Source: a plasmid. From it: a DNA stretch of 64,000 bases. The stretch's first letter is position 1. Each line of letters begins with the position of its first letter. The stretch lies in NCBI RefSeq assembly GCF_054482595.1, contig NZ_JBTHVH010000001.1. One strand, written 5' to 3'. Below, one piece after another: positions 60,401 through 64,000 of this stretch. Position numbers: made by a program.

Positions 60401-63400
60401 TGTTGAGCAATGCCCTCCTGAACTACACGAGAAACGTCCCCTAAATTAAGCCGTTTCATTGCGTCAACAATAGGGTCTACTGATGGCGCATTGGCCACAA
60501 AGTCTGGCCGGGAATTTTCGATTGTTCGATTTAATGCCGACACACTGCGAGATACTGGGTCAACCGTTGCAACGCGTTCCCCTTTCAAATCACGAGCGAG
60601 TTTAACCGTTTCTAACCGCTGTGCTTTAACATCCTCTGTTATTGCCTCTCTTCGTCTATTTGGGGGATTGTGCGCTGTTGGTGCAGCCTGCTGTGCACGG
60701 TTAGTGACTTTGTCCTCCCGTATACGAGAAACGTCCCCTAAATTAAGCCGTTTTATTGCGTCAACAATAGGGTCCACTGATGGCGCATTGGTCACAAAGT
60801 CAGGACGTGAATTTTCGATTGTGCGATTTAATGCCGACACACTGCGAGAGACAGGATCAACAGTTGCAACTCGTTCCCCTTTCAAATCTTCAACAGCTTC
60901 CCGAATACCTGCAAGCTCTTCCAGCTCTTTCGCGCTGGCGGTTTCAACTGTCCTTATAACATCGTCAATATTGGCGTTTTTTCTTTCCATGATCTTATCG
61001 CCTACCGTTTCGGTTTAAGTTTTTCTTCCAGTTTCTCCAACAGGAAAAACGCATAGGATTCAGTAAGCCTTTCAGCGTCCTGAATCGGTATACCCCCATA
61101 CAAAACCAGGTTGGACACTAAGGTCTGATAGCTTTTCAATCCCCACCTGTGGAATGAAGTCGGTAGCCCGAAAGGGCACCCACAGACGGGTATATGCACC
61201 CTCTGTGGACTCCTTTTTATCCTGATTTGGGCATTTATGCGGCGGGAGACGAAGACGCATTTCACCTTTATCGATGTAGCACGGTAAACCATGTTCGAGC
61301 TTTTCATGAGCCAGTCGGATGTGTGCCGCCAGCTTCATAAATTCAGTATCAATGGCCATCCGTTTAATCGTTTCATAACGACGCTCAGCCTGATCTTCAC
61401 GAGTACCGCTAACATCGTTATAAAGCTCACACTGATAAGCGAATTCCCAAAAACGCAAATCAACGATCGCTTCTTTGAATTCCGCGTCGTCTTCAGCTGG
61501 CAATGCTGCACGGCGCATCTCCAGCATTTCCATTGCCCAACCATCAAGCGGCACGATACGCCATTGATAAGGTACTCCCTCTACAGACACCTCAATATCG
61601 TCAATGAAAGGTTCCACTTCCAGGACCTGGATATCTTCAGCCAGAGCATTCATATCGCAATCGTAATAATGCTCTTTACCGCAATGTTTACAGGTGTAGG
61701 TGAATGTCTCGACCGGTGTTTCACGGGAGCCGGTAAATATCCACCATAACGCGGTAATCCGGTCCTGCGCCGTCCATGTCAGGGGATCATGTTTCGCGGG
61801 TTCAGCCAGCAAGGCTTTTAAATACGCCGTTGTCTGTTGTTCTTGTTCCTCCGGTGTTATCGAGTTGAAACGCATCGCATCAGCAATATTTGGCTGACGG
61901 AACTGGATCAATTCAGTTGGCCGCGATGGTAGCGGGAAAAGGGGTAAAAGCATCCTTGCTCCTTAATTCAAAGAGAAAAACTAAAGCCCAGAAGGGAAGC
62001 CAAAGAACTTGAGGATTGGTTAAACGTGCTGTGCAATGCGAAGGTCATTGGGAATGACTTAAATTCCGTAACCTGATCCCGCGCATAGGTGACATCGCCG
62101 GTAGTGACCGGGAATACCGTCATCTCATTTTCCAGTTTGGTTAAGCCGGAAGACAGCAACCGATAAATACGCACATTGAGCAAATATTTAGACGGTATAT
62201 TCCCGGTACCGTCCGGATTGATCACCCGACTTTTTGCCGTCTTAAACCAGTCTAAAACGAGGCCATCAACGGTATCCCTGACCATCATTGTTATCTGCCC
62301 AGGCGAACGCTCCGTTGGTTGAAGGATATTCCCTCCGCCGATTTTAATCGTTTCATATTCGATGCTGTAATCGTGGTAGGTAATGTCTTTGGCAAAGAAG
62401 TCTGCCCCCTCCAGTCCATCAACTTCGACAGAGAACTGCCATCCTTGCGCGAACAGCATTTTGTTCATGATGATTGACGTCAGCTTACCAACTTCCCGCT
62501 CACCAACGCCGGAGCCAAATAATGTCGTCGTTAATGCCGAAGATACATAAGACTTTACTGAAGCAACATTAAGCCCCATATCAGCCCCCTCACTTCAACA
62601 TGGATGAGAAAAGAACAATCCCCGGGATAATTGCCCTTGTTGCGCTCATTTTCTCTTCCATGTGTGCCGCCAGCTTCATAAATTCAGTATCAATGGCCAT
62701 CCGTTTAATCGTTTCATAACGACGCTCAGCCTGATCTTCACGAGTACCGCTAACATCGTTATAAAGCTCACACTGATAAGCGAATTCCCAAAAACGCAAA
62801 TCAACGATCGCTTCTTTGAATTCCGCGTCGTCTTCAGCTGGCAATGCTGCACGGCGCATCTCCAGCATTTCCATTGCCCAACCATCAAGCGGCACGATAC
62901 GCCATTGATAAGGTACTCCCTCTACAGACACCTCAATATCGTCAATGAAAGGTTCCACTTCCAGGACCTGGATATCTTCAGCCAGAGCATTCATATCGCA
63001 ATCGTAATAATGCTCTTTACCGCAATGTTTACAGGTGTAGGTGAATGTCTCGACCGGTGTTTCACGGGAGCCGGTAAATATCCACCATAACGCGGTAATC
63101 CGGTCCTGCGCCGTCCATGTCAGGGGATCATGTTTCGCGGGTTCAGCCAGCAAGGCTTTTAAATACGCCGTTGTCTGTTGTTCTTGTTCCTCCGGTGTTA
63201 TCGAGTTGAAACGCATCGCATCAGCAATATTTGGCTGACGGAACTGGATCAATTCAGTTGGCCGCGATGGTAGCGGGAAAAGGGGTAAAAGCATCCTTGC
63301 TCCTTAATTCAAAGAGAAAAACTAAAGCCCAGAAGGGAAGCCAAAGAACTTGAGGATTGGTTAAACGTGCTGTGCAATGCGAAGGTCATTGGGAATGACT

Positions 63401-64000
63401 TAAATTCCGTAACCTGATCCCGCGCATAGGTGACATCGCCGGTAGTGACCGGGAATACCGTCATCTCATTTTCCAGTTTGGTTAAGCCGGAAGACAGCAA
63501 CCGATAAATACGCACATTGAGCAAATATTTAGACGGTATATTCCCGGTACCGTCCGGATTGATCACCCGACTTTTTGCCGTCTTAAACCAGTCTAAAACG
63601 AGGCCATCAACGGTATCCCTGACCATCATTGTTATCTGCCCAGGCGAACGCTCCGTTGGTTGAAGGATATTCCCTCCGCCGATTTTAATCGTTTCATATT
63701 CGATGCTGTAATCGTGGTAGGTAATGTCTTTGGCAAAGAAGTCTGCCCCCTCCAGTCCATCAACTTCGACAGAGAACTGCCATCCTTGCGCGAACAGCAT
63801 TTTGTTCATGATGATTGACGTCAGCTTACCAACTTCCCGCTCACCAACGCCGGAGCCAAATAATGTCGTCGTTAATGCCGAAGATACATAAGACTTTACT
63901 GAAGCAACATTAAGCCCCATATCAGCCCCCTCACTTCAACATGGATGAGAAAAGAACAATCCCCGGGATAATTGCCCTTGTTGCGCTCATTTTCTCTTCC

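What the first reader, a model, noticed from the sequence alone, without database searches (positions are those of the whole stretch)
61319..64000. Exact 1341-bp tandem duplication (5' part of pmgB, tub, pmgC 3' end) ending exactly at the window edge
61319-62659 and 62660-64000 match base for base wherever I compared them. This gives two identical tub genes. It also gives a chimeric ORF (62590-63294) in which PmgB residues 1 to about 211 run in frame into the last 23 codons of the upstream gene. The novel joint is ...TTCTCTTCC|ATGTGTGCCGCC at 62659/62660. The second unit ends precisely at base 64000. I therefore cannot tell whether the sequence continues normally, repeats again, or the source contig stops there. 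A contig ending at a repeat branch point is typical of an assembly artefact. If real, the duplication doubles the tail-tube gene dose and adds 1.3 kb to a headful-packaged genome.
Basis: seen in the sequence. Interest (0 to 1): 0.5.

Follow-up and report, generated by a model that had tools for sequence, protein, structure and literature searches.

The report
Terminal tandem repeat, probably artefact
The last 1,341 bases of this P1-like phage-plasmid window are a perfect copy of the 1,341 bases before them, but the copy stops exactly at the window's last base and occurs in none of roughly a thousand relatives, so it is most likely a sequence-end artefact, not biology.

Summary
Window 61319-62659 and 62660-64000 are identical (1341 bp, 0 mismatches). 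The joint has only 1 nt of microhomology.

The joint is absent from 504 PLSDB plasmids, 499 complete E. coli records, 20 P1-type phage records and three contig collections. Thirteen contigs that carry identical Sit, PmgB or tail-fibre proteins all have the normal single-copy order. One of them differs from the window by a single base in 23 kb.

The repeat begins at 61319, and 61319 + 2x1341 - 1 = 64000. The second copy therefore ends on the last base of the window, while the window's start is an arbitrary cut inside a conserved gene. That ties the duplication to a sequence terminus.

I rate a technical origin (assembly, finishing or window-filling) at about 0.6. I rate a genuine, very recent, homology-independent tandem duplication at about 0.3. 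Only reads, or the bases beyond 64000, can decide. Interest is low.

The parts
61319..62659 (.). Copy 1 of the 1341-bp unit. In wild-type relatives this stretch is present once.
   Evidence: It aligns colinearly with P1, pEC18-3 and 13 other contigs.
62660..64000 (.). Copy 2 of the unit, base-for-base identical to copy 1. It ends on the last base of the window.
   Evidence: 0 mismatches in 1341.
62659..62660 (.). Novel joint TTCTCTTCC|ATGTGTGCC. Wild type reads TTCTCTTCC|AGATCCAGC at the right breakpoint and GCCAGTCGG|ATGTGTGCC at the left, so only 1 nt (A) of microhomology is shared.
   Evidence: The joint 36-mer is absent from three collections. The 401-bp joint query is spanned by 0 records.
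61072..61953 (-). Intact pmgB (293 aa). PmgB is the putative tape-measure chaperone and is essential in P1. This allele has Ala at codon 153, where relatives have Pro.
   Evidence: Function from PMC9024508.
61968..62579 (-). tub copy 1 (203 aa, tail tube protein).
62590..63294 (-). Chimeric ORF of 234 aa: PmgB residues 1-211, a hybrid Met codon, then the last 22 PmgC residues and the stop.
   Evidence: This exact protein is not on record anywhere.
63309..63920 (-). tub copy 2, identical to copy 1.
63931..64000 (-). The 3' end of pmgC (last 23 codons plus stop), cut by the window edge.
   Evidence: Coordinates are those of 62590-62659 shifted by 1341. PmgC C-terminus shown.
57199..60990 (-). 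sit (tape measure / transglycosylase, 1263 aa), the next gene downstream in the operon. Included for context and used to fetch relatives.
61497..61497 (.). This is the only base that differs from the nearest relative over 23,036 bp. It lies inside the unit and is repeated at 62838 in copy 2.

Best explanation
The second copy is a technical duplication created where the sequence ends. It could have arisen in assembly, in finishing, or when a 64,000-base window was filled past the end of its source record. It is probably not part of the phage-plasmid's DNA. In the underlying P1-like element the late operon most likely reads pmgC-tub-pmgB-sit once, as in every relative. On this reading the sequence truly ends at window position 62659 (...TTCTCTTCC, 23 codons before the pmgC stop), and the preceding 1341 bases were written a second time. 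What is shown: the exact identity, the base-exact coincidence with the window end, the uniqueness of the joint, and the single-copy state of the nearest relatives. What is inferred: which software or manual step made the copy.
For: (1) The repeat starts at 61319 with period 1341, and 61319+2*1341-1 = 64000. If the window boundary were unrelated to the repeat, this would happen about once in 64,000. The window's start, in contrast, is an arbitrary cut inside a conserved, single-copy VRR-NUC gene. The right end of the sequence and the duplication are therefore linked.
(2) One event explains everything: 62,659 bases of colinear sequence plus a repeat of the last 64,000-62,659 = 1341 bases. That accounts for the adjacency, the length and the end point with no coincidence.
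(3) The joint has only 1 nt of shared sequence, which is what an arbitrary cut gives (p about 0.25). The breakpoints fall inside two ORFs at unremarkable positions.
(4) The joint is found nowhere else. It is spanned by 0 of 504 PLSDB plasmids, 0 of 499 complete E. coli records and 0 of 20 phage records. There are 0 exact hits to the 36-mer in IMG/VR, JGI metagenomes or GTDB genomes. The chimeric protein is not on record among 153 billion gene positions.
(5) All 13 contigs sharing exact Sit, PmgB or S proteins are single-copy. These include DAODFQ010000014.1, which differs from the window by 1 base in 23,036 and continues ...TTCTCTTCC AGATCCAGC into pmgC.
(6) The two copies have zero differences.
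Against: No reads, coverage or provenance are available, so nothing excludes a real joint. I could not identify the source record or any documented tool that writes this exact pattern. The common circular-contig artefact (start-end overlap, PMC6966772) repeats the start of a contig at its end. It does not repeat the last bases in tandem, and it was tested and not met. The duplication leaves a biologically viable arrangement: pmgB, tub and sit stay intact, the fusion is in frame, and +1.3 kb sits well within P1's terminal redundancy. The only SNP relative to the nearest relative lies inside the unit (chance about 6%), which could hint at something biological in this segment.
Confidence: 0.62

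Rival explanations
1. This is a genuine, very recent tandem duplication in this one phage-plasmid. It would have formed by homology-independent (illegitimate, RecA-independent) joining of the pmgC 3' end to mid-pmgB between sister molecules. The contig ends at the end of the second copy because an assembler could not decide whether to loop again or exit. The late transcript would then read pmgC-tub-pmgB'::'pmgC-tub-pmgB-sit. That gives two tub doses and a C-terminally truncated PmgB (1-211) fused to 22 PmgC residues.
For: The anatomy fits a 'short-junction' duplication: direct adjacent copies, 1-nt microhomology and zero divergence. All essential genes stay intact (essentiality of pmgB and pmgC from PMC9024508). 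A graph-based assembler naturally breaks at repeat-node boundaries, which would explain the end coincidence. A de Bruijn graph cannot create this joint without reads that contain it, because the two sides share only 1 nt. The single SNP relative to the nearest relative lies inside the unit.
Against: It is a singleton among about 1000 related elements. Duplications of this kind generally use several bp of homology and are unstable under RecA (my own knowledge). A de Bruijn path ending at the branch vertex would include the shared base A after TTCC, so the window should end ...TTCCA with the array shifted by one. It ends ...TTCC. Long-read assemblies would resolve a 1.3-kb duplication and would not end there. 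No selective rationale is known.
Confidence: 0.3
2. This is an untrimmed start-end overlap of a circular contig (a circularisation artefact). It would appear as a tandem repeat because the window was read across the record's origin.
For: Start-end overlaps are a documented, common error for plasmid assemblies (PMC6966772). P1-like records are linearised at arbitrary points, including inside pmgB (p1540-3).
Against: This requires the wrapped part of the window to be exactly as long as the overlap (1341), again about a 1 in 64,000 coincidence. The window's own first 1341 bases do not match the repeat. No near-identical record with such ends is in PLSDB, RefSeq E. coli or the phage set.
Confidence: 0.04
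3. This is the visible edge of a higher-order tandem amplification (three or more copies), or of a heteroplasmic array that the assembler collapsed.
For: The sequence stops while still in register with the repeat, so a third copy cannot be excluded.
Against: An unresolved array would stop at an arbitrary phase, not at exactly 2.000 units. There is no precedent in relatives: searches give about 2 places per record, i.e. one copy of each half of the joint query.
Confidence: 0.04

Closest known systems
Phage P1 late operon LPsit: pmgC-tub-pmgB-sit (NC_005856 coordinates 40988-46576)
   Same: Same genes, order and strand, at 97-98% nucleotide identity. PHROG families 1851, 1842 and 1854 match.
   Different: P1 and all other relatives examined have one copy of the 1341-bp stretch. 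The window's Sit is 1263 aa against 1140 aa in P1, owing to internal repeats.
Start-end overlap (over-circularisation) of circular contigs in plasmid assemblies (Wick & Holt, PMC6966772)
   Same: It produces a perfectly identical extra copy of sequence at a contig terminus with no biological joint homology.
   Different: That artefact repeats the beginning of the contig at its end. Here the last 1341 bases repeat the immediately preceding 1341 bases.
RecA-independent 'short-junction' tandem duplications in E. coli/Salmonella, and classical tandem duplications of phage lambda (from my own knowledge; not retrieved here)
   Same: Direct adjacent copies, a novel joint with 0 to a few nt of homology, and in-operon gene-dose doubling.
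   Different: Those were demonstrated by selection or by physical mapping. Here there is no read, coverage or right-flank evidence, and the array ends with the data.

Membership tests
Genuine tandem segmental duplication | Two directly adjacent, co-oriented copies of the same segment | tested here: met
   61319-62659 equals 62660-64000.
Genuine tandem segmental duplication | Unique wild-type sequence flanks the array on both sides | not testable with these tools
   The left flank is normal (pmgB 3' part and sit). The right flank lies beyond base 64000 and is not in the data.
Genuine tandem segmental duplication | The joint is supported by independent molecules (reads, other assemblies, relatives) | tested here: not met
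   The joint is absent from every collection searched. Reads of the source itself could not be examined.
Terminal technical duplication (assembly, finishing or window-filling artefact) | The duplicate coincides with the end of the sequence | tested here: met
   61319+2*1341-1 = 64000. The window start is an arbitrary mid-gene cut.
Terminal technical duplication (assembly, finishing or window-filling artefact) | Copies are exactly identical and the joint lacks homology or biological landmarks | tested here: met
   0/1341 mismatches. 1-nt microhomology, and both breakpoints lie inside ORFs.
Terminal technical duplication (assembly, finishing or window-filling artefact) | No read support and single-copy depth | not testable with these tools
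   No reads or provenance are available, and the source record was not found.
Circular-contig start-end overlap / direct terminal repeat | The end of the sequence repeats its beginning | tested here: not met
   The first 20-50 bases of the window occur only at position 1. The repeat family has only the two adjacent copies.
P1-like phage-plasmid (Punavirus, IncY), as context for the element | Colinear high-identity match to P1/P7 structural and immunity modules | tested here: met
   96-98% identity to P1, P7, RCS47 and SJ46. 99.6% identity to the IncY plasmid pEC18-3 over 35 kb.

The most novel reading that the evidence does not exclude
The duplication is real and was selected together with the only nearby point change (PmgB Pro153Ala, present in both copies). 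On this reading, a P1-like phage-plasmid recently amplified its tube gene. It also gained a truncated PmgB(1-211)-PmgC(22 aa) fusion that alters tail assembly, or acts as a decoy against a host defence that senses tail proteins. This would be a small 'gene accordion' in a temperate phage-plasmid.
Probability: 0.05. Interest if true: 0.4.

Novelty: not a real feature. Interest (0 to 1): 0.08.

Why it matters
If it is an artefact, it matters only as quality control. The second tub gene and the PmgB-PmgC fusion protein should not be annotated or counted. Any pipeline that produced this window should be checked for how it handles sequence ends. If it were real, it would be a one-off, unstable duplication in a well-known operon. 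That would be a modest example of homology-independent duplication in a phage-plasmid, with no new mechanism implied.

Tried and rejected
- **Wrap-around of a 62,659-bp circular record.** Rejected: bases 62660-64000 do not equal bases 1-1341.
- **Start-end overlap or DTR.** Rejected as stated above.
- **Homology-mediated duplication or a de Bruijn false join.** Rejected: only 1 nt is shared at the breakpoints.
- **A recurrent or inherited duplication in the P1 family.** Rejected: 0 of about 1000 elements have it.
- **Records with more than 2 'places' as precedents.**
  - p1540-3 has 3 places only because its origin lies inside pmgB. It is single-copy across the origin.
  - NZ_CP016549.1 is locally single-copy. 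Its second copy is more than 20 kb away and was not pursued.
- **Finding the source record.** This failed.
  - The best complete records are 99.6-99.7% identical.
  - Window-specific 46-49-mers gave only non-identical IMG/VR contigs, or nothing.
  - The exact PmgB allele occurs only in two Logan contigs that are 98.9% identical at DNA level.
  - The exact DarB protein is not on record.
  - The nearest relative, DAODFQ010000014.1, is not the source. It carries G at 61497, and its coordinates bear no relation to the window ends.
- **The window start as a natural contig end at a repeat.** Not supported: the start is single-copy conserved backbone.
- **Structure prediction and large protein searches.** Not used, because they cannot bear on real versus artefact.

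Full report
**Observation**

The two stretches 61319-62659 and 62660-64000 are identical over all 1341 positions. The match does not extend leftwards (61318 is G, 62659 is C). The repeat finder reports the same pair at spacing 1341 and no further copy. All genes lie on the minus strand:
- sit: 57199-60990
- pmgB: 61072-61953
- tub: 61968-62579
- a 234-aa chimeric ORF: 62590-63294
- a second, identical tub: 63309-63920
- the last 23 codons of pmgC: 63931-64000

In the chimera, 635 nt come from pmgB (residues 1-211). The joint creates a hybrid ATG codon, and 22 PmgC codons follow in frame.

**What the element is**

The region is 97-98% identical to phages P1, P7, RCS47 and SJ46, where these genes are annotated sit, pmgB, tub and pmgC. 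PHROG profiles confirm the PmgB-like, tail tube and PmgC-like families. Pfam gives only a sub-threshold T4_baseplate hit for PmgB.

Over 35 kb the window is 99.6% identical to the IncY plasmid pEC18-3. It is thus an ordinary E. coli P1-like phage-plasmid.

According to PMC9024508:
- pmgB and pmgC are essential.
- PmgB is a proposed tape-measure chaperone.
- PmgC is a tail adaptor.
- Tub is one of two tail-tube candidates.

In P1 the operon is transcribed from the late promoter LPsit upstream of pmgC. That promoter lies beyond the window's right end.

**The joint**

Wild-type sequence after ...TTCTCTTCC is AGATCCAGC (pmgC). Wild-type sequence before ATGTGTGCC is ...GCCAGTCGG (pmgB). The two breakpoints share a single A. 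Homologous recombination, slippage between repeats, and a k-mer-based false join are therefore all excluded as the origin.

**Is it seen anywhere else?**

No. The searches and their results:
- A 401-bp query centred on the joint hits 504 PLSDB plasmids and 499 records of complete E. coli genomes. Only its two halves match, in separate places, and no record spans it.
- None of 20 P1-type phage records has the extra copy.
- The 36-mer across the joint has no exact match in IMG/VR, JGI metagenome contigs or GTDB species genomes.
- The chimeric protein is not on record.
- Ten contigs encoding exactly the same 1263-aa Sit all show pmgC(188)-tub(203)-pmgB(293)-sit once. So do the two Logan contigs with the same PmgB allele.
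- The contig with the same 1475-aa tail-fibre protein, DAODFQ010000014.1, is also single-copy. It differs from the window by one base in 23,036 and runs straight on into pmgC.

The duplication is therefore younger than that one-SNP divergence, or it is not in DNA at all.

**The end coincidence**

61319 + 2 x 1341 - 1 = 64000, so the second copy ends on the final base of the window. The window's left end is a cut inside a conserved VRR-NUC gene. That gene is single-copy backbone in hundreds of relatives.

If the window boundary were unrelated to the duplication, the coincidence would have a probability of about 1 in 64,000. The right terminus of the data and the duplication are therefore causally linked.

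Models that place the repeat inside a longer, correctly resolved sequence are improbable. This covers a real duplication in a complete genome, a rotated record with untrimmed overlap, and a window wrapped across an origin. A wrap of a 62,659-bp circle is excluded directly, because bases 1-1341 differ from 62660-64000. The usual start-end overlap artefact (PMC6966772) repeats the start of a contig, not the bases just before its end.

**Two families of explanation remain**

*(a) A purely technical copy at the terminus.* 62,659 colinear bases are followed by a repeat of the last 64,000 - 62,659 = 1341 bases. This one event explains the adjacency, length, end point, lack of joint homology and uniqueness. 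I cannot name the step responsible.

*(b) A real tandem duplication whose contig stops at the repeat-node boundary.*
- In favour: this is how graph assemblers behave, and such a graph could only contain the joint if reads did.
- Against: a de Bruijn path would end one base later (the shared A), which is not what is seen.
- Against: long-read assemblies would not stop there.
- Against: the event would be a singleton without known selective value.

I weight (a) about 0.6 and (b) about 0.3. Small remainders go to an origin-overlap artefact and to a higher-order array.

**A detail that slightly favours biology**

The only base distinguishing the window from its nearest relative over 23 kb is 61497 (PmgB codon 153, Ala instead of Pro). 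It lies inside the unit and is present in both copies. The chance of one random SNP landing in the unit is about 6%. The same protein allele exists in a diverged lineage. This is noted, not explained.

**Verdict**

- The most likely explanation is a terminal artefact.
- Novelty: not a real feature.
- Interest is low.
- The decisive tests are reads across 62659/62660, depth over the unit, the bases after 64000, and an audit of how windows are filled at record ends.

Noticed in passing
window 61497 (and its copy at 62838): This is the only base that differs from the nearest relative (DAODFQ010000014.1) over 23,036 bp. It changes PmgB codon 153 from Pro to Ala and lies inside the duplicated unit. 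The same protein allele occurs in two Logan contigs that are only 98.9% identical at DNA level.
   Followed up: partly
window 57199-60990 (sit); repeats at 60380-60591 / 60677-60888 and 58696-58850: The tape-measure/transglycosylase Sit is 1263 aa here against 1140 aa in P1. The difference is due at least in part to extra copies of an internal 297-bp repeat (84% identical copies) and a 51-bp repeat (3 copies). This long allele is widespread (103 index blocks). A longer tape measure predicts a longer tail.
   Followed up: partly
window 18655-24867: There are two inverted repeat pairs (450 nt at 94% and 442 nt at 87%). They belong to two ANT/KilAC antirepressor ORFs in opposite orientation (18846-19964 + and 23624-24676 -). 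These bracket c1 (19997-20848 -) and the cre-like recombinase (22002-23033 +). This is a second, inverted immI-like module next to the immunity region.
   Followed up: partly
window 5436-12618: This is a block of about 7 kb that is absent from the closest complete plasmid, pEC18-3, but present in other P1-like contigs. It includes ORFs with PAPS_reduct, Ead/Ea22 and DUF551 domains. It looks like a typical mosaic accessory region.
   Followed up: partly
window 27889-34656: The exact 2255-aa DarB-like N6-methylase/helicase protein is not on record in the 153-billion-gene index, even though the adjacent 23 kb is virtually identical to a deposited contig. The window therefore carries at least one private change here.
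   Followed up: no
window 25371-26171: An ORF of 266 aa with a metallo-beta-lactamase-fold domain (Pfam Lactamase_B, E=2.6e-15) sits in the variable stretch between the second ant copy and the region colinear with pEC18-3.
   Followed up: no
window 50162-52294: A family of 120-bp-spaced direct repeats (two clusters, up to 93% identical) lies inside the 1475-aa tail-fibre gene S (49625-54052, minus strand).
   Followed up: no
NZ_CP016549.1 (L022 and beyond): This 126-kb 'complete' IncY P1-like plasmid record holds two copies of both halves of the joint query, more than 20 kb apart. That suggests a large duplication or an untrimmed assembly overlap in that record.
   Followed up: no
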